A stretch of DNA of 38,628 nt from a virus (lineage: Duplodnaviria > Heunggongvirae > Uroviricota > Caudoviricetes). The DNA lies in IMG/VR virus record IMGVR_UViG_2711768037_000009, positions 1 through 38,628 of that record, one strand, 5' to 3'. Both the position numbers and the translations under genes were made by a program. Positions 1,431 to 16,788 of the stretch are shown in pieces (the first letter of the stretch is position 1; each line of letters begins with the position of its first letter). The notes under the pieces are model-generated. The model was not told where the DNA came from. It saw only the letters and a list, made by a program, of their open reading frames with translations, and made no database searches.

Positions 1431-1564
1431 CGGATAAAAACATTGATAATGGCGGTCACAATTTGATTCTTTTCTATAAGAATCCGTTGATCGCCACTAC
1501 TCCCCTTCCATACCTGCAATCACATCCTTAAATATCAATAGGTTAACGTTGTTTATACAAATAA

Positions 1565-1582
1565 GAAAACAACTAAATAACA
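1565..1582. repeat. Direct repeat AAAACAACTAAATAACA, copy 1 (copy 2 at ~1795-1811)
   Basis: Identical 17-bp word found twice ~230 bp apart in the ORF-poor region. Confidence 0.5.
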
Positions 1583-1794
1583 GTTCAACGAAACGTCAAC
1601 GCTTTCTCCCGATTTGGTCTAAAAATTGACGTTTTCACACATCACTTCTTATACCCGTAATCTACGCAGCAGACAGCGCCACAGCGTCCAATTTTCACCA
1701 CAGACGCCCCAACACACTACCAACAAAAACACACGCTCAAAATCTCTCCCGTTGCGTTACACAACCATATAAACAACTTATTTTCAGGCATAAC

Positions 1795-1811
1795 AAAACA
1801 ACTAAATAACA
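1795..1811. repeat. Direct repeat AAAACAACTAAATAACA, copy 2
   Basis: Identical to the word at ~1565-1582. Confidence 0.5.
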
Positions 1812-1830
1812 CATATGCCATTCCCCAAAA

Positions 1831-1925
1831 CAACCAACCTCTTTATGGCAGGCTACCGAAAAGACCCACCTCTTCTCCCAGGCTACCGGACAACCAACCT
1901 AACTTTCACAGGCAATCCGAAAACA
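1831..1925. repeat. Iteron-like tandem repeats, cluster 1 (3 copies, ~30-bp period, core CCTCTT-N5-CAGGCTACCG)
   Basis: CAGGCTACCG at ~1849 and ~1879, degenerate CAGGCAATCCG at ~1909; CCTCTT/CCTAAC at ~1838, 1869, 1898. Confidence 0.5.
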
Positions 1926-2425
1926 TTCATACGCGCGATACCCACGACACGCCATTCCCCAAACAGCGAAGCAACACCTGAACCACTGAAACCCCAACGA
2001 AGTCTGTAACCGCAAGGATTCTCTCAATCCCAAAAGACACGAAACATAACAATCACGGGAAACGCCATTACCCAATACACGAACAACTACAAAAGCCTTT
2101 CACACGCACTCCAGACAAACAACTCAAACACAATAACGAAAGGAATCGCCCACCTGCCATTACTCCACACACGGAGAAGAACAATCACCAAAACGATGAG
2201 AACACCCCATAGAAGAACCACCGCAAAACGAACGAAACCACATACACCGACAGAGAGAACAACACACCCAATTCACCAACAGAATTAGTCGCCGTATAGA
2301 ACGTTCTGGAAGGAGTGAGCATTAACGCCTATAGAGAGGTTGAGACAGATAAAACATAACATGTATAGCGAAGAAGCCAGGTATGTATAACTAAGAAATA
2401 CACAACATGTATAAGCTGGGAGGGA

Positions 2426-2449
2426 AGGAGGGGTGTCGCCTCCTTTTTC
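2426..2449 (+). terminator. Intrinsic terminator ending a rightward transcript of the A+C-rich region
   Basis: AGGAGG-ggtgtcg-CCTCCT hairpin followed by TTTTT. Confidence 0.5.
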
Positions 2450-2496
2450 GTATTTATTCAACATCTTACCATCATCCCCCGTATCCCCTACGGTCA

Positions 2497-2700
2497 TCCT
2501 TCGGTCCATACAGGGAAAAGGCTGCATCCCGCTACAAAAACGGCTGGGTTGCCTTCGGGAAACGGTCGAGTTGCCTGTGTGGATTTCGGGAAAAGGCTCG
2601 ATGCCGGTTCAGGAACGGCGGCGTACCGGTATAGCGAGAGGGAGAGTTGCGGCTGGCCACCTGCAATGTTCGGGAAGAAGAGAGGCGCTCACGTGAAGGC
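2497..2700. other. GC-rich block with repeated TTCGGGAAA(A)GGCT-type motifs; candidate structured RNA or protein-binding array
   Basis: Motif variants at ~2510, 2553, 2583, 2669 and 2793; only overlapping six-frame ORFs without RBS. Confidence 0.3.
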
Positions 2701-2955
2701 GAACCTACTTACCGCTGGATTCCCTCTGAATGCCCAGTTACAGCGTAATTGTGCCAGACAGCCAACGGGTCACAATCGATTTCAGTAGGTTTTCGGGGAG
2801 ATGATTATTCTGCCCACCAGCCATCTTCGGCCACTAAATCAGAATAATGTAAAAGTGTACTCTGTACTGAACCTGAAAACTCACTGCCAAAACCACATTC
2901 ACCGGAATAAAATCCTTTTTCGCCTGTGCGTTATTGCGATAATAACACCATTAAG

Positions 2956-2968
2956 AAAACATCTTGTT
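2956..2968. promoter_or_regulatory. AAACA-TCT-TGTTT palindrome just upstream of the RBS of the 2982 gene
   Basis: Member of the AAACA-N3-TGTTT family; coordinates +/-2. Confidence 0.35.
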
Positions 2969-2981
2969 TAAGGATTGCTTT

Positions 2982-3311
2982 ATGTTTGCAAATATCGACA
3001 TCAACCAAATTAAGAAATTGACTCAAAAAGAGTTTGACCAGTTTTATGAGCTGGAAGGTTGGTCTTCCACTCTGATTAATTCAAGATGGGTGCTGGAGCT
3101 GATGACTCGTGATGATGCACCTGCTTTGATGATTAGCGACCTGGGTGATGATGCTGACTTTATGGATATGAGCGAATTTTGTGTGGACACATACAACCGC
3201 AGCCAGAAGTACTACTTCACATGCGATAGCGAAAATGACGTGATTTCTAAGGTCTATCTTCACCTCGTCCAGCATTGGGACGTTCAGGAGTTTCTTGAGG
3301 TATTCGCGTAA
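2982..3311 (+). CDS. Small acidic protein (110 aa), function unknown
   Basis: ORF track 2964..3311; ATG at residue 7 preceded by AAGGA; about 21 Asp+Glu against 8 Lys+Arg. Confidence 0.6.
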   Translation: MFANIDINQIKKLTQKEFDQFYELEGWSSTLINSRWVLELMTRDDAPALMISDLGDDADFMDMSEFCVDTYNRSQKYYFTCDSENDVISKVYLHLVQHWDVQEFLEVFA

Positions 3312-3441
3312 CCCCAACCAAAGCCAGCATTGCTGGCTTAATTTCATCTGTAGCCGCAGGGAAGAACCTGCATATCGCTCATGCGCCTGATCAATATGCT
3401 TTGTAGCCGTTTTCTTACTGGTATTATTTACGCAATTGAGA

Positions 3442-3454
3442 AAACAAGTTATTT
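3442..3454. promoter_or_regulatory. AAACA-AGT-TATTT motif (one mismatch) upstream of the 3466 gene
   Basis: AAACA-N3-TGTTT family member overlapping the 5' leader. Confidence 0.3.
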
Positions 3455-3465
3455 ACGAGGTTGTG

Positions 3466-3777
3466 ATGGATAAGTCACTGATACTGGGGCTGGACAAAGA
3501 CCAGAAGAGAAAAGAGAAGCCTGCACTGGTTGCTCAATTAACTTTGCTGGACATCGTTGCCAATGGAACCTCTATTCGTCTGTTCCGTGAAACAGCGGTG
3601 TCTTTCGATAAAAACACTTTTACTCGTTATGTAATGAATGTTCGTCGCCAGCGTGGAAAAGGCTGGATGGCATTTCAAAGAATGTGGCCGGAACATCAGC
3701 TGGAACTGGCTTTGATGGAAGTAAACCGCGTGGCCCAGCAAGAAATTCAGAGAGCATCAGTGATGGCAATAGCCTGA
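3466..3777 (+). CDS. Hypothetical protein (103 aa)
   Basis: ORF track 3436..3777; ATG at 3466 preceded by GAGG. Confidence 0.6.
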   Translation: MDKSLILGLDKDQKRKEKPALVAQLTLLDIVANGTSIRLFRETAVSFDKNTFTRYVMNVRRQRGKGWMAFQRMWPEHQLELALMEVNRVAQQEIQRASVMAIA

Positions 3778-3811
3778 TAATGTGCAAGTGGTAATTAGTC
3801 GACAGTACGAC

Positions 3812-3839
3812 AGCCCCGCCATCCTTACGGGGCTTTTTT
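3812..3839 (+). terminator. Intrinsic terminator
   Basis: AGCCCCG-ccatcctta-CGGGGCT hairpin followed by TTTTTT. Confidence 0.7.
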
Positions 3840-3903
3840 GTATTGTAGGTGCATACCTATGACTATAAAATAGAAAAATAACTAAGACACTACGGAGAGT
3901 GAA

Positions 3904-4299
3904 ATGACCGTTAAACGCGAAAAACTGACAGTTGATGTTTACTATGCCTCTGAAACCGCCGAAGGTAAGAATGTGGCAAAAATCACCGTTGTTACGTACA
4001 ACACCGAAACTGGTGCCGAAGTACAGGCCAGTACGATCGTGCGTAAAGGTGATGCCTCCGGCGGAGAGTACGCGACTCAATACCAGTCCATTCTCGATGC
4101 AACTGACCCGCTGCTGCTGAAAATCGAGAACTACTTCCGCCAGGTTGATGAAGAGGTGTTTGAAACCATGATGAGTATGGTTAATTCCGTATTCACCTCC
4201 AGTCTGAACACCAGCACCACCTGGATTGGTCAGTACGGCCTGCGCATTACCTCTGGCATTCCTGCCGACACCTTAATCCCTGAAAGCGTATTCGCTTAA
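3904..4299 (+). CDS. Hypothetical protein (131 aa)
   Basis: ATG start preceded by GGAGAG; bracketed by terminators. Confidence 0.65.
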   Translation: MTVKREKLTVDVYYASETAEGKNVAKITVVTYNTETGAEVQASTIVRKGDASGGEYATQYQSILDATDPLLLKIENYFRQVDEEVFETMMSMVNSVFTSSLNTSTTWIGQYGLRITSGIPADTLIPESVFA

Positions 4300-4308
4300 T
4301 CCTCTTTG

Positions 4309-4336
4309 AATGGCGCGTAAACCGCGCCATTTTATT
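4309..4336 (+). terminator. Intrinsic terminator
   Basis: ATGGCGCG-taaac-CGCGCCAT hairpin followed by TTTATT. Confidence 0.75.
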
Positions 4337-4344
4337 ATGCCCGA

Positions 4345-4357
4345 TAACAATTTGTTT
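4345..4357. promoter_or_regulatory. TAACAATTTGTTTT motif, near-identical to the copy at 342-356
   Basis: AACA-ATT-TGTTT followed by the same TCTGC as at 357-361. Confidence 0.4.
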
Positions 4358-4523
4358 TCTGCCTTATCTGATTTGTGAAAATGATTTCACTGAAGCAACT
4401 TAATAAGGAAACCATCATGGACTTGATATCTATATCGAGACGCAGCCTAAAAACGATCTGAATAACGAGGCATCCAGAAAGCAGGTTGCTTACTTCCGTA
4501 AGTTCAATGCGCTCGTTGGGTGG

Positions 4524-4790
4524 ATGGAGCGCAACGTAGGTGAAGTCGAAAATTGTGAGCTTTTAGAATTAACGATGAATGACATTTGTCTTCTGAAAGC
4601 TCATTTGATGCACATAAACGAAAGCAATTGCGAAGAGTACTTGCCTACTCGGGAAGGTTTTTTCTTCGGCAGTCAGGAGTACGACGAAGGTTACTGGCAT
4701 GACGTGGATAAGCTGAAAAAACTTGTGGAAGACCTGATCAGGAACCACGACTTTCACAATAACAGACTGACCTTCTGCGCCTGGTGGTAA
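4524..4790 (+). CDS. Hypothetical protein (88 aa); true start uncertain
   Basis: ATG at 4524 with poor SD spacing; same frame is open upstream to ~4407 without an ATG; a strong RBS (AAGGA) at ~4405 serves a 14-codon ORF in another frame. Confidence 0.5.
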   Translation: MERNVGEVENCELLELTMNDICLLKAHLMHINESNCEEYLPTREGFFFGSQEYDEGYWHDVDKLKKLVEDLIRNHDFHNNRLTFCAWW

Positions 4791-4793
4791 ATA

Positions 4794-4937
4794 TGGGCGA
4801 TTTCAAGAAACGCCTGAAGGAAAGAGCCGAGATGGTCAGAAAGCAAAACGCATCTTCTGTCATCAGATACGCAAGGCTGTTTAGTCGCAACAACAAATCA
4901 GTTGAGGAAAAGATCCTTAGCGTAATCGGACGATAAT
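4794..4937 (+). CDS. Possible small basic protein (47 aa)
   Basis: ATG 4 nt after the previous stop, GGTGG upstream; below the ORF-track size cut-off. Confidence 0.3.
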
Positions 4938-4942
4938 TATTA

Positions 4943-4972
4943 AGGCCATCAGCATTGGTGGTCTTAAATGAC
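4943..4972. repeat. Degenerate copy of hairpin element AGGCCAYCAG...TGGTGGYCTTAAATGAC
   Basis: ~30-bp similarity to the perfect hairpin at ~5483-5514. Confidence 0.35.
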
Positions 4973-5110
4973 TTTTAATAACCGAAGGTTAGTTTGAAAC
5001 CTGGCTATCAACTTCCAGAACCTTTCTTGTGTATTCAGCCTGTATTAACTTCTTTTATGCCTTATCTACACTGCGATAATTACACCAACAAGAAAACAAG
5101 AGGAAAGCAG

Positions 5111-5308
5111 ATGAAAACTATTACTCAAGTCCAGCAAATCTGGGCGCAGCTGGCAAATGAGCCTGTGGATAACAATCAGCAGCTTGAGCGCGCATTTCAC
5201 CATTTTGAAGCCGGTGACAGCATCATTGACGTGTGGGTGTGGATCGACGGGCTGTGTCCAGATATCACCGTTGCCCAGTTGCAGCAGGTGGGGAGGCACG
5301 ATGACTGA
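5111..5308 (+). CDS. Hypothetical protein (66 aa)
   Basis: ORF track 4994..5308; ATG at 5111 preceded by AGGAAAG. Confidence 0.5.
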   Translation: MKTITQVQQIWAQLANEPVDNNQQLERAFHHFEAGDSIIDVWVWIDGLCPDITVAQLQQVGRHDD

Positions 5309-5350
5309 TTTCACCATTACCCCAAAAGCACAAAATGTATTCCTTGAATC

Positions 5351-5515
5351 ATGGCTGAATTTGCCGCATTAAGTGAGAGTATTACGATGGCAAAATTGAC
5401 CAGAGCGCAGGAGCATGACCTGCGACGCGCAATTTATGATCTTGAAAGAGTTCGTTGCAGCACATCGAAAGCAATGAGATATAGGCCACCAGTTAACGCT
5501 GGTGGCCTTAAATGA
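5351..5515 (+). CDS. Possible small protein (42-54 aa; ATG at 5351 or 5387)
   Basis: Open frame ending in TGA inside the downstream hairpin element; weak RBS. Confidence 0.25.
   Translation: MAEFAALSESITMAKLTRAQEHDLRRAIYDLERVRCSTSKAMRYRPPVNAGGLK
5483..5508 (+). other. Perfect 10-bp-stem hairpin AGGCCACCAG-ttaacg-CTGGTGGCCT; terminator-like but no U-tract
   Basis: Seen directly; related words at ~4943 and ~6200. Confidence 0.45.
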
Positions 5516-5527
5516 CCATCCTGTTCC

Positions 5528-5604
5528 CCGCAGGCTAAAAACACCAACCTCTTACCTCCAGGCAACCGACAAACCTACCTGTTCCCGTCCGGCTACCGCA
5601 ACTT
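5528..5604. repeat. Iteron-like tandem repeats, cluster 2 (3 copies, same family and orientation as cluster 1)
   Basis: GCAGGCTAAAA, CCAACCTCTTACCTCCAGGCAACCG, CCTACCTGTTCCCGTCCGGCTACCG. Confidence 0.5.
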
Positions 5605-5651
5605 ACCACTTTGACGCCTTATTCGTACAACGATAATTAACACCAGCAAGA

Positions 5652-5664
5652 AAACAATTTGTTA
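5652..5664. promoter_or_regulatory. AAACA-ATT-TGTTA motif upstream of the 5685 gene
   Basis: AAACA-N3-TGTTT family, one mismatch. Confidence 0.35.
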
Positions 5665-5684
5665 TTTACGATAAGGAATTAATC

Positions 5685-6167
5685 ATGAATTTTATCGCTA
5701 CTGTAAACGCACCCGCACATGGCAATATCGCAGTAACGTTCTCTGACATTGAAAAACGAGTACTTGGTGCATGGCGCGACAATGAGACGGTAGAACTGTC
5801 AGCACAAGAAAAATGCATTATTGCACGTGACATCATTGGTAATCGTCGTTACTCGCGGGTATTTGAGAAAGCGTATGTGGTAAATTCTGGATTCGGAACG
5901 TTCGTCTTTCCGGTGCGCTCCGGGCGATTCTGCCAGTCCAAGCTGATTGAGTTCGCTACGCAGATTTCTGTCTGGATTAAAACTCAATCGTCGTTCAAAT
6001 TTTCCGACGATGAAGCAGTATCGCAGGGGATGCAGATCGCCAACAATGCGATTAAATGCAAAAACATTACGTATGCCGCTGGCGTTGACACATGGAAACT
6101 GTTTTGCGCTAACTTTATGCTGAATGTATACGCAAGCAACCGCATCCACATCCTTGATGGCGTGTAA
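5685..6167 (+). CDS. Hypothetical protein (160 aa)
   Basis: ATG preceded by AAGGA at 8-nt spacing; followed by a terminator. Confidence 0.65.
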   Translation: MNFIATVNAPAHGNIAVTFSDIEKRVLGAWRDNETVELSAQEKCIIARDIIGNRRYSRVFEKAYVVNSGFGTFVFPVRSGRFCQSKLIEFATQISVWIKTQSSFKFSDDEAVSQGMQIANNAIKCKNITYAAGVDTWKLFCANFMLNVYASNRIHILDGV

Positions 6168-6175
6168 CTGAGAAG

Positions 6176-6199
6176 AGGGCCAGAAACGGCCCTTTCTCT
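6176..6199 (+). terminator. Intrinsic terminator
   Basis: AGGGCC-agaaac-GGCCCT hairpin followed by TTCTCT. Confidence 0.55.
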
Positions 6200-6251
6200 A
6201 TAGCCACCAGTTGCCGCAGGGAAATTTTCAGAAACGGCAAGGAACGCATTC

Positions 6252-6560
6252 ATGAGCCGACGGGAAACGGCCAGGATTTTTTCGGGAAACGGCGGCATTC
6301 GCCTTGATGTAGAAAAACATCGGGAAGCTGGTGGAATCCAACCAGCGGCTGTCGGACAGGTGAGCGGGGAAAATTATGATGACTTTCGTCGCCCGAGACA
6401 TCCAGATTTCTTTCGTAGCGTAATCACATACGTGATTAATTGGTGTGATTATGTGAGAAATCACGCGCACATAATACGCGAGCGGATACAGAACAAAACA
6501 AAATGCCGATCCGCGCCGACAATTAAACGCGGATCACATAGCAAGACAAAAAGCCAATGA
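6252..6560 (+). CDS. Doubtful ORF (102 aa, Arg-rich) in a region dense with inverted repeats
   Basis: ATG with AAGGA upstream, but atypical composition and overlapping palindromes. Confidence 0.25.
   Translation: MSRRETARIFSGNGGIRLDVEKHREAGGIQPAAVGQVSGENYDDFRRPRHPDFFRSVITYVINWCDYVRNHAHIIRERIQNKTKCRSAPTIKRGSHSKTKSQ
6420..6540. promoter_or_regulatory. Cluster of inverted repeats (ATCAC/GTGAT words, ATTATGTG-N12-CACATAAT, GATCCGCG-N12-CGCGGATC); candidate operator or origin
   Basis: Several dyad symmetries within ~120 bp in the convergent intergenic region. Confidence 0.3.
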
Positions 6561-6758
6561 TTAACTATGCGCTATAGCGCAATATAACGCGTTTTAAGCG
6601 CATTAATGTGTTAAGTAATGGGTATGTACTGGCAAGGATATAAAAGCGCGTCTATGGCGTTATTTTGGTGCTTGTTTTTATGTTGTTGGAGTGAGTCAAA
6701 GACAATAAAAAACGCGCTAATGATGGCGCGTTATGGTGGGAGTATTGGAAACGAAAAA

Positions 6759-6777
6759 AGCGCCCACTATGGGCGCT
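6759..6777. terminator. Bidirectional intrinsic terminator
   Basis: AGCGCCC-actat-GGGCGCT hairpin flanked by A-run upstream and T-run downstream. Confidence 0.65.
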
Positions 6778-6782
6778 CGATT

Positions 6783-7013
6783 TTATTTGTGTAAACTGAT
6801 TTTAAATCCCATTTCTACAAACGCTTTTAACATTAAAAATATATCAGCGTCGTTCACGTCTGCTTTTTTTCGCTCCTGGTCGCTCAATAAGTCAATTTTG
6901 CGCGTCGTTTCATCTATAAGCTCGACTGCGCGCCCAGCGTAACCAGCGATCCCAGCGATGCGATTAACATAATATTCATTATGGACGTTAACGCCAGCGA
7001 TAAGAACAAACAT
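6783..7013 (-). CDS. Small protein (76 aa), unknown
   Basis: ATG preceded by perfect SD AAGGAG at 8-nt spacing. Confidence 0.6.
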   Translation of the reverse strand: MFVLIAGVNVHNEYYVNRIAGIAGYAGRAVELIDETTRKIDLLSDQERKKADVNDADIFLMLKAFVEMGFKISLHK

Positions 7014-7254: not shown

Positions 7255-7273
7255 AGCGCCCATAGTGGGCGCT
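7255..7273. other. Hairpin AGCGCCC-atagt-GGGCGCT, inverted copy of the 6759-6777 hairpin
   Basis: Same stem, loop is the reverse complement; no U-tract. Confidence 0.5.
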
Positions 7274-7285
7274 TGATTCCATTAA

Positions 7286-7936
7286 TTACGCTTTGAAAGC
7301 ATCAGCTAAATAATTGTAGAAATCATTTTTAATGAAGCGATATTGCTGAGTACCAGCTTTTGCACTCCCAGCTCCTTTGACTTTTTCAACAAGTCCAAGA
7401 CGTTCGCAAAGATTGATCAACTGGTTGGCTTGAGTATAGCCAGCGTCCAATTTAATTTCGCACGCTTTTTTAGCTTCATTCATTAAATCGAAAACAGCGC
7501 CATTGGTGAACGTGTCGATCTCGTCGTTAATCATATCGATTAAAGCGAATACACGAGATCCAGACATATCAGCGACGGAATAAACACATTTTCCAGCTTT
7601 AATGGATTTAACCAAATAAACCAGTTTTTCCAGTGAATAACTATTAGTCATAGCGTCACGAAAAAATACTTCTGGCGCTTGTTTGCTTGCTTTAATCGCA
7701 TAGTAGAAAACAGAGCATAATTTTTCGTCTTCTACAGCGTTTACAACGTTGTTGATGAAGTAAGCAAGTTTAGTGGTCGCAGCTTGCATATTTGCTTTGT
7801 CTGCTTTAGTGTGCGTACCATTTTTATAATGTTCGTTATATGTTTGAGTTGCCAGATCTGCTTTTTCGCGCAGCTCGTCGGATACAATGGAAGCAGCTTC
7901 AATGATGGATTTTTTAGAAATGATAATGTTAGCCAT
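7286..7936 (-). CDS. Hypothetical protein (216 aa)
   Basis: ORF track 7286..7945; second ATG has AAGGA at proper spacing. Confidence 0.6.
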   Translation of the reverse strand: MANIIISKKSIIEAASIVSDELREKADLATQTYNEHYKNGTHTKADKANMQAATTKLAYFINNVVNAVEDEKLCSVFYYAIKASKQAPEVFFRDAMTNSYSLEKLVYLVKSIKAGKCVYSVADMSGSRVFALIDMINDEIDTFTNGAVFDLMNEAKKACEIKLDAGYTQANQLINLCERLGLVEKVKGAGSAKAGTQQYRFIKNDFYNYLADAFKA

Positions 7937-8231: not shown

Positions 8232-8756
8232 TTAAAACGGAAGGATTCGTTCAACCCAATCGAAGAAAACAAGTATTTTTCTTCCGTCTTTCAACTTAAG
8301 AGTGACCTGACAAGCATCAACGCCTCTTGATACCCCTTCTATTTCACGACCGTCTGCCATGTAGACCCTTATAGATTGGTCGTTTTGATAAGCCTTGCGA
8401 CATATCGCAAAAAAGTCACGGCGTGATGGCTGATTGTCAACATAGTCTGGATGTATTGTTAGCCTACCTTTGAACTCGCGAGCAATGCCATCGATTACAC
8501 CTGATTCAATTGTGCTAATGCGCTCAAGTGGGAGTCTTATACGATTTTCTTTATCATATGGAAGCGGGCATAAATCTAGCTTATTGCGGGAAGGCATTGT
8601 CCCCTGAACGTACATGCAAAACACCTGACCGTCTTCAAGCGTGACTCTTACAGGAATGTTGTTCTTCCGCCAGAACATAAGTATGTTTTCAGCATGTTCG
8701 TAGTCTCGCGGCCAGACTTCAGCCGGTATGCCGTAGGTGATGTCCAATGTTCTCAT
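8232..8756 (-). CDS. Hypothetical protein (174 aa) with two similar beta-rich segments
   Basis: ATG start; start overlaps the stop of the upstream gene; no domain recognised. Confidence 0.6.
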   Translation of the reverse strand: MRTLDITYGIPAEVWPRDYEHAENILMFWRKNNIPVRVTLEDGQVFCMYVQGTMPSRNKLDLCPLPYDKENRIRLPLERISTIESGVIDGIAREFKGRLTIHPDYVDNQPSRRDFFAICRKAYQNDQSIRVYMADGREIEGVSRGVDACQVTLKLKDGRKILVFFDWVERILPF

Positions 8757-12556: not shown

Positions 12557-13237
12557 ATGGACGTAAAAATCACGATTTTGCAGGTTGATGTTGCCAACCT
12601 TCGCCCGAATACCTGGAACACCAATTCGGTTGGTGCGCAGAATTTCGAAAAACTGAAAGGTTCTATCGAAAAATTGGGCTTTTTTAAGCCAATTTTGGCT
12701 CGTGAGCTTGAAGATGGATTTTTTGAAATCCTCGGCGGCGAACATCGCTGGCGTGCTGCTATTGAGCAAGGAATTTCAACGGTTCCTGTGCTTTCTGTGG
12801 GCAAAATTAGCGATGTCGTGGCAAAACAGATGTCACTGGTGGACAACGAGCGATACGGTGAAGACGACCAAATCGCATTGCAACGCTTCATTGAAGAAAT
12901 TCAGTCAGAACTTGACTATCAACTGTCTGAAATCGCCCCGTATGACGACGAAATCTCGATGGTTTTAGCAAAAGAGGCGGCAATCGACCTTGAAGCACTG
13001 GAGGCGTTGTCTCGTGGTAGTGATGAGCCTGTCGATACCGACAAACGAGAGAAAACCGAACGTGTGGGTGCGGAACATCAGACCATGCGCTTCAAAGTAA
13101 CTTTCGATGCGTCAGATCGTGTTGCAGAAACCATAAAAAACATCATCAAAGAGCAGGCTATTAACACCGGTAATGAAATGGAGAACGCTGGTGAGGCTCT
13201 GGTGTGGCTGGTCGACTACTACAAGGAGCGTATGTAA
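12557..13237 (+). CDS. ParB/Srx-superfamily (ParB-like nuclease domain) protein 1
   Basis: ORF track 12539..13237; ATG at 12557; ParB-box-like GGEHRWRAA. Confidence 0.7.
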   Translation: MDVKITILQVDVANLRPNTWNTNSVGAQNFEKLKGSIEKLGFFKPILARELEDGFFEILGGEHRWRAAIEQGISTVPVLSVGKISDVVAKQMSLVDNERYGEDDQIALQRFIEEIQSELDYQLSEIAPYDDEISMVLAKEAAIDLEALEALSRGSDEPVDTDKREKTERVGAEHQTMRFKVTFDASDRVAETIKNIIKEQAINTGNEMENAGEALVWLVDYYKERM

Positions 13238-13905
13238 TGACCAAAAAGTTTGAAATCGTATATCGCGACCCGGCAGATCTTATTCCCTATGAGATGAATG
13301 CCAAAAAGCATGATGAACAGCAGATCCGAGATCTAGCCGCAGCCATTAAAAAGCGCGGATTTGACCAGCCAATTACGGTCGATAAGAACGACGTAATTAT
13401 TACTGGCCACGGCCGCCGTGAGGCTGCAATTTTTGCTGGACTTGAGCGCGTACCGGTTATTGTTCGCGATGATCTCAGTGATGACGAGGTTCGTGCGAAG
13501 CGCCTTGAAGATAACCGACTTGCCAGCATTGATTACGATGCAATTAAGCTACAGAAAGAGCTTGAGTCGCTTGTTCTGGACGATATCGAGGTTTTCGGCT
13601 TTGAAGAGCGTGAGTTGAATGTTCTCGTTGGCAGCATGACAGAAGAAATGGACACCGACTCGCTAGTTATCGATCTTGGCGAAGAAACTAAACGACAGAA
13701 GGATGAACACACCGAGATCAGTCGCGAAGTTGCAGCGGAAGAAGTACGTGTTGTCGACGTATTGGGCTTTAAAACGCTTCCTGCTGGCTCTGCCATTGTT
13801 GTTGGTGATTTGCTTGCCCACATGGAAGAAATGACGGGAGAAAGCGGGGTAGACGCATTTGTGGCATATGCGGAGAAGATCTCTTCCGGGGAGATGGCTG
13901 CATGA
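13237..13905 (+). CDS. ParB/Srx-superfamily (ParB-like nuclease domain) protein 2
   Basis: ATG overlaps the upstream TAA; AAGGAG at 9-nt spacing; ParB-box-like GHGRREAA. Confidence 0.7.
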   Translation: MTKKFEIVYRDPADLIPYEMNAKKHDEQQIRDLAAAIKKRGFDQPITVDKNDVIITGHGRREAAIFAGLERVPVIVRDDLSDDEVRAKRLEDNRLASIDYDAIKLQKELESLVLDDIEVFGFEERELNVLVGSMTEEMDTDSLVIDLGEETKRQKDEHTEISREVAAEEVRVVDVLGFKTLPAGSAIVVGDLLAHMEEMTGESGVDAFVAYAEKISSGEMAA

Positions 13906-14540
13906 GCAAATACATCATCAACGTATCGTTTCAGACTCGCGTAAATAAAACCACGCGCACGCTGGAAATCGCCGAGTCGTTCGGGCTTGGCTTGGACGAA
14001 AAAGAGTGGACGCTTTACGACAATCTGGAGCTGGAAGTGAAGCAGGGCGATGTGGTGTACATCACCGGCCAATCCGGTTCCGGCAAATCCGTTGTGCTGC
14101 GCGAGTTGCAACGACAGATGAAGGATGAAGGGCTGTCTGTAGCCTCCATCGATGATTTTACCTTCGATAATGAGGTTAACGTCATCGATCAGTTGGGCAA
14201 AACGACCAGTGGTGCGCTTGGGTTGTTATCTATGGCTGGTCTGAACGATGCATATCTGTTTGTTCGCAAGCCTTCTGAAATGTCAGACGGTCAGAAATAT
14301 CGTCTCAAGATTGCCAAACTGATTGAGTCAGGCGCTAAAGTGTGGGCTGCTGACGAGTTCGGGGCTGTTCTAGACCGTGTAACCGCTCAGGTTGTGGCAT
14401 CTAACCTCCAGCGTGCCGCTCGAAAGGTTGGTGCGACGGTAATGGTGGCGACGACTCACGAAGACCTGAAGAACGCGCTGCGCCCGGATATGCAGATCAC
14501 CAAGCACTACAAAGAACGCGTGAAGGTGGAATATGCCTGA
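13902..14540 (+). CDS. Minimal ABC-type ATPase (212 aa)
   Basis: Walker A GQSGSGKS, signature-like SDGQK, Walker B VWAADEF, H-loop TTHE; start overlaps upstream stop. Confidence 0.7.
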   Translation: MSKYIINVSFQTRVNKTTRTLEIAESFGLGLDEKEWTLYDNLELEVKQGDVVYITGQSGSGKSVVLRELQRQMKDEGLSVASIDDFTFDNEVNVIDQLGKTTSGALGLLSMAGLNDAYLFVRKPSEMSDGQKYRLKIAKLIESGAKVWAADEFGAVLDRVTAQVVASNLQRAARKVGATVMVATTHEDLKNALRPDMQITKHYKERVKVEYA

Positions 14541-14787
14541 TTTGAAGATCGTAGAGCTGAAGCCATCGAAAGAGACTGATAACAACAACGTGGAAGTCAT
14601 CCGCCTGCTGGAAGAAGCACTTCAGCACGCCAGAGAAGGAAAAAGCCAGAGCCTAGCGCTGTTGATGATCAACAACGACGGCAGTGTTCTTGATTGCTGG
14701 CATAACGGCGGGCGCCCGTATGTCATGGTAGGGGCGATGGAGTCTCTTCGCCTTGATTTCATCAATGCCAATATCGAGCGCAGGTGA
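14533..14787 (+). CDS. Hypothetical protein (84 aa)
   Basis: ATG overlapping the upstream stop (translational coupling). Confidence 0.55.
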   Translation: MPDLKIVELKPSKETDNNNVEVIRLLEEALQHAREGKSQSLALLMINNDGSVLDCWHNGGRPYVMVGAMESLRLDFINANIERR

Positions 14788-14792
14788 TCGAC

Positions 14793-15683
14793 ATGGCAGA
14801 TATCATCATCAAACGCTACCGCCCTGAAGAGTTTCCGCGTCATCTGGACTTTCTGGAGCGAATGACTGTCACAAAGGGAACTGTAGAGGACTGGCACGCT
14901 CTTAAGTCGCTTCACTACAAAACAGACGGCAAACCTTTCGCGCCAACATACTATCGCTGCGAACTGGATGACCGTCTGGTGGGCGTCGTGGTTATGGCTT
15001 ACCCGAAACTTCTGCTGGCACCTCGCCATCGCATGTTTCCTAAGTTGAAACCAACCACCAATACCACCGTGGCTAACCAGTACTGGGGCCGGTACGTGAA
15101 TAACAACTTTGCGGTGATCAGCCGCTCAGTTGTGGATACTCAGTACCGTGGCGTAGGCGTCTCTTATCGAATGATTAACCTAGTTAGCAGGATGCATGAC
15201 CGGCCAATCATTGAGATCCAGTCCTCGATGAGCAAATACAATCCCTTCGCCATGAAAGCAGGGTTCAAGTTCATCCGCCCTGAGCGACCGAAGAGCTATG
15301 AAAGTGCACTGCGTGTGTTCCAGCGCCATTTCCGTTCCGACCCGGGTGATAACGAGGCGATCGTCAAAGAGTTGTTCGCAATGAGCGAGTCCCGTCGTCG
15401 CCGTGCACTGCGAGATCTGGTGGCGGACTACCACAAGAACAGTTCCCTGGCAAAAGCTGGGAGGAATCGTGGAACGACAATTCAAGACATTGCCGACAGT
15501 CTGGTGGACGAGGCCAGCATTGTGAAGCTGCTCAAGGACATTCACAACCTGAGCTTTACGTCCCCGCTGTATGGTGTGTACCGAAACCCTGACTTTGGTC
15601 GTCGACTGCCTGACACGCTGCCACTGCTGGCATTCGACAAACAACCTTTGGATAAACCGTTAGAAATTGCTTTACCGGCATAA
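14793..15683 (+). CDS. Hypothetical protein (296 aa), possible GNAT-like acetyltransferase fold in the N-terminal half
   Basis: ORF track 14784..15683; ATG at 14793 after AGGTGA; segment RSVVDTQYRGVGVSYRMINLV resembles GNAT motif A (weak). Confidence 0.55.
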   Translation: MADIIIKRYRPEEFPRHLDFLERMTVTKGTVEDWHALKSLHYKTDGKPFAPTYYRCELDDRLVGVVVMAYPKLLLAPRHRMFPKLKPTTNTTVANQYWGRYVNNNFAVISRSVVDTQYRGVGVSYRMINLVSRMHDRPIIEIQSSMSKYNPFAMKAGFKFIRPERPKSYESALRVFQRHFRSDPGDNEAIVKELFAMSESRRRRALRDLVADYHKNSSLAKAGRNRGTTIQDIADSLVDEASIVKLLKDIHNLSFTSPLYGVYRNPDFGRRLPDTLPLLAFDKQPLDKPLEIALPA

Positions 15684-16155: not shown

Positions 16156-16788
16156 ATGACTGTCGAAAAAGACGAGGTAAAAACTCGCCTGACACCAGCG
16201 GAGTGGGCCGAAGCTGAAGCCAAATGGACGTCAGGCGAATATACACTCTCAAAGCTGGAGGAAGAGTACGGCATTCGTCGTGAAACACTCTCCAGACATT
16301 TCAAAAAGCGAGGATTAGAGAAAGGCGCGGACTCTGTTGGGAAGATGGTTCGTGAGTCTCTTAAATCTGACGCAGAGCTTCGCGCTAAAGCCCGTGCGGA
16401 AAAGATAGAAGAACGTCGTACACGTTATGACGGCTGGGCGTATGCGTTGGGGCAGATGGTGATGGTCGAAGTCACTACGGCCAAACGTGAGAGAAAGCCT
16501 TTAGGGGCGATTGAGGATTCTCTCAAGAGCTTACAGAGAGCCAGTAATACCCTTGCAAAATGCTTTGAAGTTTCGTCCAAAGCATTGGGCATGGATCATG
16601 CGGAAAATGACGAGGAAGAAATTCCGAACCTGGTATTTGGTGAGCTTACGCCTTCCCAGGTGGCGAAATTACGTCAGGAAGACGACGAGCCTGAAATCAT
16701 CGATGACGAATTGCTTGAGACGTTGGAAGAAGAAGCTCTAAGCGAATTTGATGCGACAGATGATGGAAGTGAAGGGGAGGACGAATAA
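16156..16788 (+). CDS. Terminase small subunit (210 aa)
   Basis: N-terminal HTH-like segment, acidic C-terminal tail, immediately upstream of and overlapping the large terminase; AGAGGG SD. Confidence 0.65.
   Translation: MTVEKDEVKTRLTPAEWAEAEAKWTSGEYTLSKLEEEYGIRRETLSRHFKKRGLEKGADSVGKMVRESLKSDAELRAKARAEKIEERRTRYDGWAYALGQMVMVEVTTAKRERKPLGAIEDSLKSLQRASNTLAKCFEVSSKALGMDHAENDEEEIPNLVFGELTPSQVAKLRQEDDEPEIIDDELLETLEEEALSEFDATDDGSEGEDE

What the first reader, a model, noticed from the sequence alone, without database searches (positions are those of the whole stretch)
6200..6780. Convergent intergenic region packed with dyad symmetries and GCGC-centred palindromes
Between the plus- and minus-strand blocks lie ATCAC-atac-GTGAT, direct GTGATTA repeats, ATTATGTG-N12-CACATAAT, GATCCGCG-N12-CGCGGATC, GCGCTATAGCGC, AACGCGTT and AACGCGC-taatgatg-GCGCGTT within ~500 bp. 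The only ORF there (6252..6560) is Arg-rich and atypical. Such a density of protein-binding-type symmetries at a transcriptional convergence point suggests an origin of replication or an immunity/operator region rather than coding sequence.
Basis: seen in the sequence. Interest (0 to 1): 0.4.

Follow-up and report, generated by a model that had tools for sequence, protein, structure and literature searches.

The report
Conserved non-coding iteron locus in phage-plasmid
The 615-bp gap between two converging gene blocks of this SSU5/pHCM2-type phage-plasmid is truly non-coding and strongly conserved: it is bounded by transcription terminators and built around phased direct repeats that recur only once more in the genome, so it is most likely a protein-binding DNA control site, possibly a second, phage-mode replication origin.

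Summary
Positions 6200-6780 hold 8 perfect inverted repeats against 0.7 expected, the densest stretch in the window. The repeats are not one kind of thing. Three are intrinsic terminators: one ends the + operon and two in tandem end the - operon. The ATCAC, ATTATGTG and GATCCGCG dyads occur only in the E. coli lineage. The GCGC-centred palindromes belong to ~10-bp tandem repeats.

ORF 6252..6560 is not a gene. It carries stops and frameshifts in every relative and shows no codon periodicity.

It holds phased direct repeats GAAACGGC (6231, 6264, 6286, plus one in the terminator loop) spaced 33 and 22 bp. The same motif forms a 5-unit array at 2515-2612. These are the only two such arrays in a related 108-kb genome, and they differ from the RepA plasmid-origin iterons. 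Inward-facing Chi sites usually flank the block.

There is no conserved promoter, RNA structure, DnaA box, IHF site or unwinding element.

Best reading: a transcription-insulated, protein-bound cis element, probably replication-related. A neighbouring winged-helix protein is the candidate binder. The function is unproven. Interest is moderate.

The parts
6174..6199 (+). Terminator-type hairpin that ends the long + operon. Stem GGGCC 6177-6181 / GGCCC 6188-6192, loop AGAAAC, then TTTCTCT. The loop and 3' stem carry repeat copy R0 (GAAACGGC, 6183-6190).
   Evidence: Sequence. The helix is kept in all 19 aligned relatives, with G-C to C-G double changes in 4 sequences. The simple scan did not list it because its T-run can pair with the upstream purines.
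6204..6211 (-). Chi-like octamer on the minus strand. It reads CCACCAGT on +, one mismatch from the Chi complement CCACCAGC. It is exact Chi in most relatives.
   Evidence: exact CCACCAGC at this position in 10 of 16 representatives. By the counts, 65 of 76 unique intergenic regions hold at least one minus-strand Chi. It is absent from the Serratia-type relatives.
6204..6315 (+). Block 1, the most conserved part of the gap. It holds direct repeats R1 6228-6238 (TCAGAAACGGC), R2 6261-6271 (CGGGAAACGGC) and R3 6283-6293 (CGGGAAACGGC), with start-to-start spacing of 33 and 22 bp. Two longer units, CAGGGAAATTTTC-RGRAAACGGC, lie at 6215-6238 and 6270-6293.
   Evidence: GAAACGGC occurs 4 times in the 38.6-kb window, all here and all on +. 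Mean pairwise identity is 0.78-0.85, equal to the flanking genes. Spacing (33/34, 22) is found in 61 of 76 unique relatives, and motif columns score 0.94 against 0.78 for other block-1 columns. The motifs are kept in Serratia-type relatives whose flanking 160-aa protein is only 30% identical.
6327..6334 (+). Exact Chi (GCTGGTGG) on the + strand. It faces block 1, as does the left Chi.
   Evidence: a + Chi lies right of block 1 in 14 of 16 representatives, but at non-homologous positions in the different lineages (174, 195 and 219-221 nt from the segment start).
6252..6560 (+). Spurious ORF (102 aa).
   Evidence: No Pfam or PHROG match. The ATG is lost outside the E. coli lineage, and every relative has in-frame stops or frameshifts, including an 83%-identical E. 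coli plasmid. Substitutions per codon position are 30/29/28, against 87/68/204 in the neighbouring gene.
6421..6475 (.). Lineage-specific palindromes (TAATCAC-N4-GTGATTA, TAATCACA-N15-TGTGATTA, ATTATGTG-N12-CACATAAT), just left of the conserved ATACGCGAGCG.
   Evidence: They are present only in the E. coli lineage. Other lineages carry a different palindrome near the same place: CACGTTGCGCCAACGTG in most of the Klebsiella/Salmonella-type representatives, AGCCATT..AATGGCT in the Serratia type.
6492..6536 (-). GATCCGCG-N12-CGCGGATC hairpin followed on the minus strand by GGCATTTTGTTTTGTT. It is terminator-like and confined to the E. coli lineage and its recombinants.
   Evidence: 11 pairs.
6564..6610 (.). 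Run of roughly 10-bp tandem units of the form TAWAACGCGY (TATGCGC TATAGCGCAA TATAACGCGT TTTAAGCGCA). It includes the GCGCTATAGCGC and AACGCGTT palindromes.
   Evidence: Sequence. The equivalent run in other lineages is CTAAAACGCTG TAAAACGCGC TATAACGTGT, and in the Serratia type TTTAAACGCGC TGTAAAGCGTTC TAAGCGC. The periodicity was read by eye and not tested statistically.
6612..6626 (.). Conserved 15-mer GTAATGGGTATGTAC of unknown role.
   Evidence: Nearly invariant in the SSU5-like relatives. It is not a recurrent promoter-like motif in the genome.
6645..6668 (+). Weak + strand terminator-like hairpin with a T-run.
   Evidence: The equivalent GGCGCGTTTATGGCGCT TATTTTTGG is present in pHCM2.
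6705..6732 (-). Second (inner) intrinsic terminator of the minus-strand operon: AACGCGCC-loop-GCGCGTT followed by TTTTTT.
   Evidence: An inner second minus-strand terminator at this place is present in nearly all relatives examined, with varying loop sequence; in the Serratia type it is a second copy of the AGCGCCCA..TGGGCGCT hairpin, and one Serratia-type relative (L185) has only one.
6752..6786 (.). First intrinsic terminator of the minus-strand operon (AGCGCCCA-CTA-TGGGCGCT followed by TTTTTT). It is bidirectional here, since the + strand tail is CGATTTTATTT.
   Evidence: Invariant stem in all relatives. The same hairpin recurs at 7255.
2512..2625 (+). Cluster A, the paralogous array of five repeat units (motif starts 2515, 2537, 2559, 2590, 2612; spacing 22, 22, 31, 22). 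It lies in a 1.55-kb stretch (1431-2980) without a credible or conserved gene, 3.7 kb upstream of block 1.
   Evidence: Together with block 1 it is one of only two clusters in the 108-kb PhiR41_1 genome. It is conserved with spacing 0, 22, 44, 66, 97, 119 in about 50 related loci, 1.47-4.2 kb from block 1.
7289..7936 (-). Conserved 216-aa protein (phrog_1513) with a predicted C-terminal winged-helix domain. It is the candidate binder of the repeats; this is an inference.
   Evidence: AlphaFold pLDDT 84. Foldseek gives probability 0.9-1.0 but weak E-values (0.05-0.7) to the winged helices of Orc1/Cdc6, RTP, TubR and PadR. It is syntenic with the gap in all lineages.
5685..6167 (+). 160-aa protein (phrog_1641), always immediately upstream of block 1 and always between the two repeat arrays.
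   Evidence: Synteny. AlphaFold pLDDT 89 with no PDB fold match at E<0.1.

Best explanation
Shown: the 615-bp gap 6168-6782 is a conserved, non-coding, cis-acting DNA locus of SSU5/pHCM2/pMT1-type phage-plasmids.

Transcription from both converging operons is stopped at its edges, by one hairpin terminator on the left and two tandem terminators on the right, so the interior is shielded from read-through. Its core (6204-6315) is an array of same-strand direct repeats, C(A/G)G(A/G)AAACGGC, spaced by whole numbers of helical turns (22 and 33 bp). The array is paralogous to a larger one (five units here, up to six in relatives) 3.7 kb upstream.

Inferred: both arrays are bound, on one face of the DNA, by one element-encoded protein. 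The best candidate is the neighbouring winged-helix protein 7289..7936. The pair then acts as an iteron-type replication element distinct from the RepA plasmid origin: either the phage-mode (lytic) origin or its cis-acting partner, comparable to ori plus crr in P4, or to origin plus copy-control iterons flanking a rep gene.

In Enterobacteriaceae lineages the array is usually bracketed by Chi sites. Each is oriented to stop RecBCD arriving from outside and to load RecA towards the array. This would protect the site and make it a recombination hot spot, which fits the mosaic middle part of the gap.

They are not the conserved core.
For: Non-coding:
- Stops and frameshifts in every relative.
- No codon periodicity, 30/29/28 against 87/68/204 in the flanking gene.
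- No protein-family hit.

Conserved:
- 772 PLSDB plasmids, in Escherichia, Klebsiella, Enterobacter, Citrobacter, Cronobacter, Salmonella pHCM2 and Yersinia pestis pMT1, with the gap length kept.
- 239 of 5,426 complete E. coli genomes, always on plasmids.
- Block 1 is as conserved as the flanking genes and is kept where the flanking protein has fallen to 30% identity.

Repeats:
- All four GAAACGGC copies of the window lie in 110 bp on one strand.
- There are only two clusters in a related 108-kb genome.
- Spacing of 22/31/33-34 bp is conserved.
- Motif columns are more conserved than the spacers, 0.94 against 0.78.
- The variant L088 changed R2 and R3 in the same way.
- They differ from the 12 RepA iterons ACCGCTGACAGCATA.

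Not an RNA:
- No Rfam hit.
- The structure conservation index is below 0.25 across the middle.
- Only the terminator helix covaries.
- No conserved sigma-70 promoter.

Other support:
- Terminators insulate both sides.
- The Chi pair has origin-like polarity.
- A winged-helix neighbour resembles replication and segregation DNA binders.
- The layout array - gene(s) including the 160-aa protein - array mirrors the iteron-repA-iteron layout of the same plasmid's RepFIB replicon.
Against: - No AT-rich unwinding element: the least stable 40-mer of the gap is only in the top 3.7% of the window.
- No DnaA box or IHF consensus in any of 20 representatives, and only a few GATC sites: 2 in the window, 0-6 among the 20 representatives.
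- GC skew rises monotonically round the genome with no switch here.
- The site lies at a point of convergent transcription, which is the usual geometry of a terminus rather than an origin.
- No initiator has been identified. The 160-aa neighbour has a fold with no PDB match, and the winged-helix assignment of the 216-aa neighbour rests on weak E-values.
- The R0-R1 spacing (48-49 bp) and the 24-bp R2-R3 spacing in Serratia-type relatives are off helical phase.
- Chi is missing or degenerate in some relatives, including the left site of this window.
- No experiment or publication bears on the site.
Confidence: 0.4

Rival explanations
1. Transcriptional control sites. The two arrays would be operator or activator-binding sites for an element-encoded regulator, for example a tandemly binding winged-helix protein. 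They would bracket, and perhaps loop out, the variable block of small genes 2982-6167 and so control its expression or read-through.
For: The arrays lie at the start and the end of that gene block in every relative, while the block's content varies from 1.47 to 4.2 kb. A 22-bp phasing is typical of tandem winged-helix binding (established knowledge, for example PhoB boxes). A winged-helix protein and an FljA-like regulator are encoded nearby.
Against: No conserved promoter lies downstream of block 1 and there is no + strand gene for it to control. Block 1 lies after the operon's terminator. The rest of the gap, about 450 bp of conserved islands, is left unexplained.
Confidence: 0.2
2. Packaging recognition site. 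The repeats would be binding sites for the small terminase subunit, that is, a pac site. They would be comparable to lambda cosB R sites, whose core as I recall it is also GGAAACG, or to the repeat boxes of SPP1 and P1 pac.
For: Phased repeats on both sides of a central segment, and Chi sites nearby that would matter for DNA ends. The putative small terminase subunit 16156..16788 belongs to a PHROG described as a DNA-binding domain. The resemblance to the lambda R-site core rests on memory only.
Against: The site is 9.4 kb from the terminase genes. The large subunit is of the T4/headful type, not the lambda GpA type. A second array lies 3.7 kb away. The records of SSU5 and Cyrano, virion-forming relatives, do not start at this gap. 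The Chi sites face inward, so they would be inactive for RecBCD entering at a cut inside block 1.
Confidence: 0.1
3. RNA-level target. The repeats would act in RNA as binding sites for the syntenic FljA-like protein (8232..8756). FljA belongs to a family that represses flagellin fliC mRNA through its 5' leader.
For: All nine repeat copies lie on the sense strand of the long + operon. The FljA-like gene (Pfam Flag1_repress, E = 6e-81, with weak Hfq/LSM similarity) is syntenic with the gap in every lineage examined, including elements from Klebsiella, which is non-flagellated (my own knowledge), so fliC cannot be its only target. R2 of this window shares 11 consecutive bases (GAGCCGACGGG, then AAAC) with the E. 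coli K-12 fliC leader. The loop UGGAAAC of the K-type form of the left terminator (the window's own loop is AGAAAC) matches the fliC leader hairpin GGGU-GGAA-ACCC.
Against: Block 1 lies downstream of the operon's terminator-type hairpin (for the upstream array an equivalent terminator hairpin is seen only in the E. coli lineage), and no promoter is seen. No RNA structure covaries. The 11-base match is confined to the E. coli lineage and has a chance expectation of about 0.03 by my rough estimate. Y. pestis small-RNA sequencing reported no transcript here.
Confidence: 0.08
4. Nothing more than a terminator-rich spacer. On this view the conservation reflects only the three terminators and recent common ancestry, and the repeats are chance.
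For: Three of the dyads are ordinary terminators. The middle part is mosaic and poorly conserved.
Against: Block 1 is not a terminator, yet it is as conserved as the coding genes and survives at 66% identity where the middle has fallen to 29% and the adjacent protein to 30%. The motif forms exactly two clusters in 108 kb.
Confidence: 0.07

Closest known systems
Iteron-type replicons with two repeat arrays (P1 oriR/incA, F incB/incC, and the RepFIB replicon of this same plasmid family)
   Same: Same-strand direct repeats with about 2-turn (22-bp) phasing. Two arrays flank one or more genes. The motif is conserved more than the spacers.
   Different: No Rep_3/RepA-type initiator lies between the arrays. 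The gene always present there (160 aa) has a fold with no PDB match. There is no DnaA box and no AT-rich unwinding element. The arrays are 1.5-4.2 kb apart.
Satellite phage P4 ori plus crr (cis replication region)
   Same: Two clusters of the same short repeat, several kb apart, both acting in cis on replication and both bound by one phage protein. This comparison rests on established knowledge of P4 and not on a test here.
   Different: The P4 repeats are the octamer TGTTCACC, bound by the alpha primase-helicase. No such protein or motif is linked to this locus. The similarity is one of architecture only.
Lambda cosB R sites (gpNu1-binding)
   Same: The core GGAAACG resembles the R-site core as I recall it, and there are several spaced copies.
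   Different: The terminase here is of the T4/headful type and lies 9.4 kb away. All copies have one orientation, and a second array exists.
Tandem intrinsic terminators at convergent operon ends
   Same: The hairpins at 6711-6732 and 6759-6777, each with a T-run, and the hairpin at 6177-6192 fit exactly.
   Different: They account for about 100 of the 615 bp.
Chi-guarded DNA (Chi polarity around oriC; Chi protection of rolling-circle plasmids)
   Same: An exact GCTGGTGG lies to the right and its complement to the left. Each is active against RecBCD moving towards the core.
   Different: There is only one site on each side. The pair is not universal: the left site is degenerate in this window and absent from Serratia-type relatives. 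Genome-wide Chi shows no orientation bias, 11 on + and 9 on -.

Membership tests
Iteron-type replication origin | Array of three or more same-strand direct repeats, phased with the DNA helix | tested here: met
   R1-R3 are spaced 33 and 22 bp; the paralogous array is spaced 22, 22, 31, 22 bp. Spacing is conserved in 61 of 76 relatives. R0-R1 (48-49 bp) is off phase.
Iteron-type replication origin | Adjacent AT-rich DNA unwinding element | tested here: not met
   The least stable 40-mer in the gap is -47.4 kcal/mol, only in the top 3.7% of the window. AT content reaches at most 0.68.
Iteron-type replication origin | Host-factor sites (DnaA boxes, IHF, GATC cluster). These are common but not universal. 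| tested here: not met
   No conserved TTWTNCACA (only 3 of 20 representatives, all of the E. coli lineage, have one exact match at about 300 nt) and no WATCAANNNNTTR in any of the 20 representatives. GATC sites number 0-6.
Iteron-type replication origin | Cognate initiator encoded next to the iterons | tested here: inconclusive
   The 160-aa neighbour has no PDB fold match. The 216-aa neighbour has a winged helix resembling Orc1/Cdc6, RTP and TubR, but only at E = 0.05-0.7. No binding data exist.
Iteron-type replication origin | Supports autonomous or helper-dependent replication; copy-number peak on induction | not testable with these tools
   This needs cloning or marker-frequency sequencing.
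Iteron-type replication origin | Strand-composition (GC-skew) switch at the site. Expected only for bidirectional replication. | tested here: not met
   Cumulative GC skew rises monotonically over the 108-kb PhiR41_1 genome.
Prophage immunity / operator region | Repressor gene and promoters at the site | tested here: not met
   No conserved promoter. The flanking genes have no repressor-family hit. The putative repressor of Cyrano lies elsewhere, CYRAN_45 against CYRAN_111/112 flanking this gap.
Prophage immunity / operator region | Conserved dyad-symmetric operators | tested here: not met
   The non-terminator palindromes differ between lineages.
Protein-coding gene (ORF 6252..6560) | Reading frame kept in relatives, codon-position bias, family match | tested here: not met
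Structured non-coding RNA / sRNA gene | Known family, covarying helices, own promoter and terminator | tested here: not met
   Rfam finds nothing, with the best E-value 0.24 driven by the terminators. The structure conservation index is below 0.25 in 6300-6650. Only the terminator covaries. No conserved promoter. No small RNA was reported here in Y. pestis pMT1.
Intrinsic (Rho-independent) terminators | GC-rich hairpin followed by a T-run at the 3' end of an operon | tested here: met
   6778-6758 (-), 6732-6711 (-) and 6759-6777 (+). The hairpin 6177-6192 (+) is supported by covariation.
Lambda-type cos / terminase recognition site | Adjacent lambda-type terminase (Nu1/GpA) | tested here: not met
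   The large subunit is Terminase_6N/6C, the T4 type. The small-subunit candidate has no Pfam hit. Both lie 9.4 kb away.
Lambda-type cos / terminase recognition site | Virion DNA ends map to the site | not testable with these tools
   The only indirect point is that the SSU5 and Cyrano records do not start here.
Chi (RecBCD regulatory) site | Exact 5'-GCTGGTGG-3' | tested here: met
   6327-6334 on +. The left site 6204-6211 has one mismatch in this window and is exact in most relatives. Activity was not tested.

The most novel reading that the evidence does not exclude
The two repeat arrays are the element's own targets, in RNA or DNA, of its FljA-like, Sm-like regulator. On this reading a flagellin-mRNA repressor and a mimic of the fliC leader (GAGCCGACGGG..AAAC; UGGAAAC hairpin loop) have been recruited into a phage-plasmid control circuit. 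That circuit persists even in non-flagellated hosts such as Klebsiella.
Probability: 0.08. Interest if true: 0.75.

Novelty: new member of a known kind. Interest (0 to 1): 0.45.

Why it matters
SSU5/pHCM2/pMT1-type phage-plasmids are common. This locus is in 239 of 5,426 complete E. coli genomes and 772 PLSDB plasmids, including Salmonella Typhi pHCM2 and Yersinia pestis pMT1. These elements also carry resistance genes (PMC9600943).

In the literature I could search, nothing describes how they switch from low-copy plasmid replication, driven by RepA, to phage-mode replication. A conserved, unannotated repeat locus separate from the RepA origin is a concrete and cheap candidate for that second origin or its control site. 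It can be tested by marker-frequency sequencing and by deletion.

If confirmed, it would also give a handle for curing or engineering these elements. It would name a function for one or two conserved hypothetical proteins.

Tried and rejected
- **Coding.** ORF 6252..6560 and the long stop-free minus-strand frames were rejected. The frames differ between relatives, there is no codon periodicity and the amino-acid composition is odd.
- **Known RNA.** Rfam at gathering and at E<=10 returns only terminator-driven noise. There is no tRNA or tmRNA.
- **Conserved RNA structure.** Sliding RNAalifold on both strands and on block 1 with distant relatives supports only the terminators.
- **Reported small RNAs.** The Y. 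pestis pMT1 small RNAs sR082 and sR083 map near ymt, not here.
- **RepA copy-control iterons.** Rejected, because the RepA iterons are ACCGCTGACAGCATA.
- **Origin or terminus by GC skew.** The skew is monotonic.
- **Xer/dif-like and Tus-Ter-like sites.** Looked for by eye only. The ATTATGTG..CACATAAT arms point the wrong way for dif. The TATGTTGT match to Ter is partial and lineage-specific. Both rest on consensus sequences recalled from memory.
- **CRP and DnaA boxes in the TGTGATTATGTGA motif.** Spacing or mismatches do not fit (for DnaA).
- **GGTATGTA as a phage promoter motif.** It is not recurrent.
- **The 160-aa neighbour as a DNA-binding initiator.** No fold match.
- **Lambda cosB-like site.** Wrong terminase type and too far away.
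- **Literature.** Searches for an SSU5 or pHCM2 origin, iterons or small RNAs found nothing relevant. The 2026 preprint on PhiR41_1 could not be opened.
- **Wasted scan.** One genome-contig scan failed because my pattern had the wrong spacer length. The second found only a few Kluyvera, Buttiauxella and Yersinia copies, and what appears to be an assembly overlap.
Full report
**What the window is.** The window is 96-97% identical to Escherichia phages CMS-2020a, PhiR41_1 and Cyrano. These are SSU5/pHCM2-type phage-plasmids of about 108 kb.

The finding covers the gap between the + gene 5685..6167 (160 aa, phrog_1641) and the - gene 6783..7013 (76 aa, phrog_1585). The annotated phage relatives examined place no credible gene in the gap: none in PhiR41_1 or Cyrano, and in SSU5 only a 40-aa ORF over the terminators. 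Nor do most of the plasmid records examined, although a few list a 'hypothetical protein' under the match.

In the complete PhiR41_1 genome almost all genes are on one strand. The gap lies where that long + block, which encodes DNA-metabolism genes and small genes, meets a short inverted - block of about 6.5 kb. The - block runs from a UvsW-like helicase to the 76-aa gene.

**Checking the observation.** All the listed motifs are at the stated coordinates. Perfect inverted repeats (arm >=7, loop <=20) number 8 in 6200..6780. The expectation from 300 dinucleotide-preserving shuffles is 0.73 +/- 0.84, and no shuffle reached 8. No other 581-bp stretch of the window has more than 5.

The repeats are heterogeneous.
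- AACGCGC-N8-GCGCGTT (6711-6732) and AGCGCCCA-N3-TGGGCGCT (6759-6777) are two tandem intrinsic terminators of the minus-strand operon. The outer one is bidirectional. Tandem minus-strand terminators are present in nearly every relative, including distant ones.
- The hairpin at 6177-6192 ends the + operon and is the only helix in the region with compensatory changes.
- The ATCAC, ATTATGTG and GATCCGCG dyads exist only in the E. coli lineage. Other lineages carry different palindromes near the same place.
- GCGCTATAGCGC and AACGCGTT belong to a run of roughly 10-bp tandem units, TAWAACGCGY. The run has counterparts in all lineages. I read this periodicity by eye and did not test it.

**Coding or not.** ORF 6252..6560 has no family match. 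It loses its start codon outside the E. coli lineage. It is broken by stops or frameshifts in every relative, including an E. coli plasmid 83% identical in DNA.

The region is G+C-rich enough to give long stop-free frames on both strands. These frames shift between relatives. Substitutions show no three-base periodicity: 30/29/28 in 6200-6320, against 87/68/204 and 302/83/111 in the flanking genes. The gap is non-coding.

**Conservation.** The gap is found, with its length kept at about 580-630 bp, in 772 PLSDB plasmids. These come from Escherichia, Klebsiella, Enterobacter, Citrobacter, Cronobacter, Salmonella (pHCM2) and Yersinia pestis (pMT1). It is also in 239 of 5,426 complete E. coli genomes, always on plasmids.

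I collected 76 further loci through the upstream protein and reduced them to 16 representatives below 95% identity. Conservation is uneven.
- Positions 6257-6314 have a mean pairwise identity of 0.78-0.85, as high as the neighbouring well-conserved genes. This is far above the adjacent 76-aa gene (0.35-0.43).
- The middle (6320-6560) is mosaic, with two sequence types and natural recombinants between them (L006, L007).
- A more distant group of about 110-kb elements has proteins that match Serratia. It keeps the same synteny: 159-aa gene, terminator, gap of about 640 bp (11229-11865 in L114), two terminators in most members, 67-aa gene, 226-aa gene. There the 160-aa protein is only 30% identical, the 216-aa protein 61% and the FljA-like protein 55%. 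Block 1 is still 66% identical overall and its motifs are almost unchanged.

**The conserved core: phased direct repeats.** GAAACGGC occurs four times in the 38.6-kb window, at 6183, 6231, 6264 and 6286, all on the + strand. The first copy lies in the loop and 3' stem of the terminator. The other three are spaced 33 and 22 bp.

The (33/34, 22) spacing is found in 61 of 76 unique relatives. Motif columns are more conserved than the rest of block 1, 0.94 against 0.78. One variant (L088) changed R2 and R3 in the same way, to GGGGAAAGGC.

A scan of viral contigs for the double motif found extra copies in some relatives. This led to a second array in the window itself: five units at 2515, 2537, 2559, 2590 and 2612, spaced 22, 22, 31 and 22 bp on the same strand. 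It lies in a 1.55-kb gene-free stretch.

In the whole 108-kb PhiR41_1 genome these are the only two clusters of the motif. The upstream array is conserved in about 50 related loci, with spacing 0, 22, 44, 66, 97, 119. It lies 1.47-4.2 kb from block 1. In the shortest version, only one small ORF and the 160-aa gene lie between the arrays.

The plasmid's RepA (IncFIB) origin is about 38 kb away on the circle and uses different iterons, ACCGCTGACAGCATA, in 12 copies flanking repA. The repeats here are therefore not RepA sites.

**Chi sites.** Block 1 is bracketed by CCACCAG(C/T) on the left and GCTGGTGG on the right. These are Chi on the minus and plus strands.

The right Chi is present in 14 of 16 representatives, although it lies at non-homologous positions in the different lineages. 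The left Chi is exact in 10 of 16; in this window it has one mismatch. Sixty-three of the 76 unique gaps have at least one Chi on each strand, and the Cronobacter type has four Chi in about 660 bp.

From the known polarity of RecBCD, each site is active against an enzyme moving towards block 1. This is the polarity seen around a bidirectional origin, and the opposite of a terminus. The Serratia-type relatives lack Chi here. Genome-wide, Chi shows no orientation bias.

**DNA or RNA?** The evidence against an RNA is as follows.
- Rfam finds nothing.
- The structure conservation index is below 0.25 across 6300-6650 on both strands.
- RNAalifold on block 1 from 19 sequences, including the distant group, finds covariation only in the terminator.
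- No sigma-70-like promoter is conserved in the E. coli type, in pHCM2 or in the Serratia type.
- A Y. pestis small-RNA survey reported nothing here. Its two pMT1 intergenic small RNAs map near ymt.

Conservation of primary sequence, whole-turn spacing and insulation by terminators fit a protein-bound DNA site better.

One lead points the other way. All repeats lie on the sense strand. An FljA-like gene (Pfam Flag1_repress, E = 6e-81; weak Hfq/LSM similarity) is syntenic with the gap in the lineages examined, including elements from Klebsiella, which is non-flagellated (my own knowledge). R2 of this window shares GAGCCGACGGG..AAAC with the E. coli fliC leader. I keep this as a low-probability rival.

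**Tests of the origin reading.**

| Feature | Result |
|---|---|
| Phased iterons | met |
| Second paralogous array | met |
| Independent of the RepA origin | met |
| Insulated from transcription | met |
| Origin-like Chi polarity | met in most relatives |
| Winged-helix protein 500 bp away | weak match |
| Unwinding element | not found |
| DnaA or IHF sites | not found |
| GC-skew switch | not found |
| Recognisable initiator | not found |

The winged-helix protein's best structural neighbours are Orc1/Cdc6, RTP, TubR and PadR, with probability 0.9-1.0 but E-values of only 0.05-0.7. The 160-aa protein that always lies between the arrays is confidently folded (pLDDT 89) but matches nothing in the PDB. 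The site is also at a transcriptional convergence point, which is not the usual geometry of an origin.

**Packaging reading.** The motif core resembles the lambda cosB R sites as I recall them. However, the large terminase subunit is of the T4/headful type and lies 9.4 kb away. The SSU5 and Cyrano records do not begin at this gap.

**Verdict.** The dyad-rich gap is a real, conserved, non-coding cis element. Several of the dyads that were seen are terminators or lineage-specific features.

The best-supported mechanism is a transcription-insulated, Chi-guarded site bound by an element-encoded protein and paired with a second array upstream. Its role is most likely in phage-mode replication, either as an origin or as a cis-acting partner. 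I put this at about 0.4. Transcriptional control of the intervening genes, packaging, and an RNA-level FljA-type circuit remain as rivals.

I found nothing published on this site. It would be a new member of a known kind of element, and it is of moderate interest because these phage-plasmids are widespread and the site is easy to test.

Noticed in passing
window 1431-2980: A 1.55-kb stretch without a credible gene. Positions 1640-2290 are extremely C+A-rich on the + strand (GC skew down to -0.47, AT skew +0.47) and carry internal repeats such as AAACAACTAAATAACA twice, 229 bp apart. A promoter-like TTGACG-18-TATACC lies at 1627-1656 (read by eye). A strong + terminator lies at 2422-2448, just before the upstream repeat array. 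The stretch could be an ~800-nt unstructured non-coding RNA or a strand-asymmetric DNA element. Rfam has no match, and the C+A-rich stretch is also present in a Cronobacter-type relative (L125).
   Followed up: partly
window 8232-8756 (-): A 174-aa protein matches Pfam Flag1_repress (FljA, repressor of phase-1 flagellin) over its full length, E = 6e-81. Its C-terminal part has weak similarity to Hfq/LSM. The gene is kept in relatives from Klebsiella (a genus I know to be non-flagellated) and in the distant Serratia-type group, so flagellin mRNA may not be its only target.
   Followed up: partly
window 6253-6270 versus E. coli K-12 fliC leader (L191 342-368, minus strand): Eleven consecutive identical bases, GAGCCGACGGG followed by AAAC, are shared between repeat R2 and the fliC 5' untranslated region. 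The fliC hairpin GGGU-GGAA-ACCC resembles the UGGAAAC loop of the K-type form of the terminator at 6177-6192 (the window's own loop is AGAAAC). The 11-base match is seen only in the E. coli lineage.
   Followed up: partly
window 6759-6777 and 7255-7273: The same terminator hairpin, AGCGCCCA-NNN-TGGGCGCT, is used twice in the window and up to three times in the Serratia-type relative L114. Among relatives the central part alternates between CCCACTATGGG and CCCATAGTGGG, that is, the middle is inverted.
   Followed up: no
window 5685-6167 (+): The 160-aa protein (phrog_1641) is predicted with high confidence (pLDDT 89, pTM 0.78) as a mixed beta/alpha fold. It has no match in the PDB at E<0.1, so the fold may be undescribed. 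Homologues were found only in SSU5-like elements.
   Followed up: yes
window 13204-15683 (+), upstream of the terminase genes: A cluster containing a ParB_N-domain protein (233 aa), a small ABC-type ATPase (212 aa), and proteins of 84, 299 and 88 aa. It lies between the divergent promoter region and the putative small terminase subunit (16156..16788, a PHROG described as a DNA-binding domain). Its function is unknown; it could act in DNA modification, defence or packaging.
   Followed up: no
L094 36224-37889 (PhiR41_1 103.9-105.6 kb; outside the window): The RepA (IncFIB) replicon of the family has at least 12 iterons, ACCGCTGACAGCATA. Nine lie on one side of repA and three or more on the other, the classic origin plus copy-control layout.
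   Followed up: yes
L003 (Yersinia pestis pMT1) 2800-5500: Compared with pHCM2, pMT1 appears to lack about 25 kb of the DNA-metabolism block, from nrdAB up to the upstream repeat array, and has an IS1541 at the junction. Only block 1 remains, and both flanking Chi sites are degenerate there. The inference comes from gene order alone and was not checked by alignment.
   Followed up: partly
window 6320-6560 across relatives (L006, L007): The middle of the gap is mosaic. L006 and L007 join the Klebsiella-type left half to the E. coli-type right half, with junctions near 6315 and 6475-6545. This indicates recombination within the gap, next to the Chi sites.
   Followed up: partly
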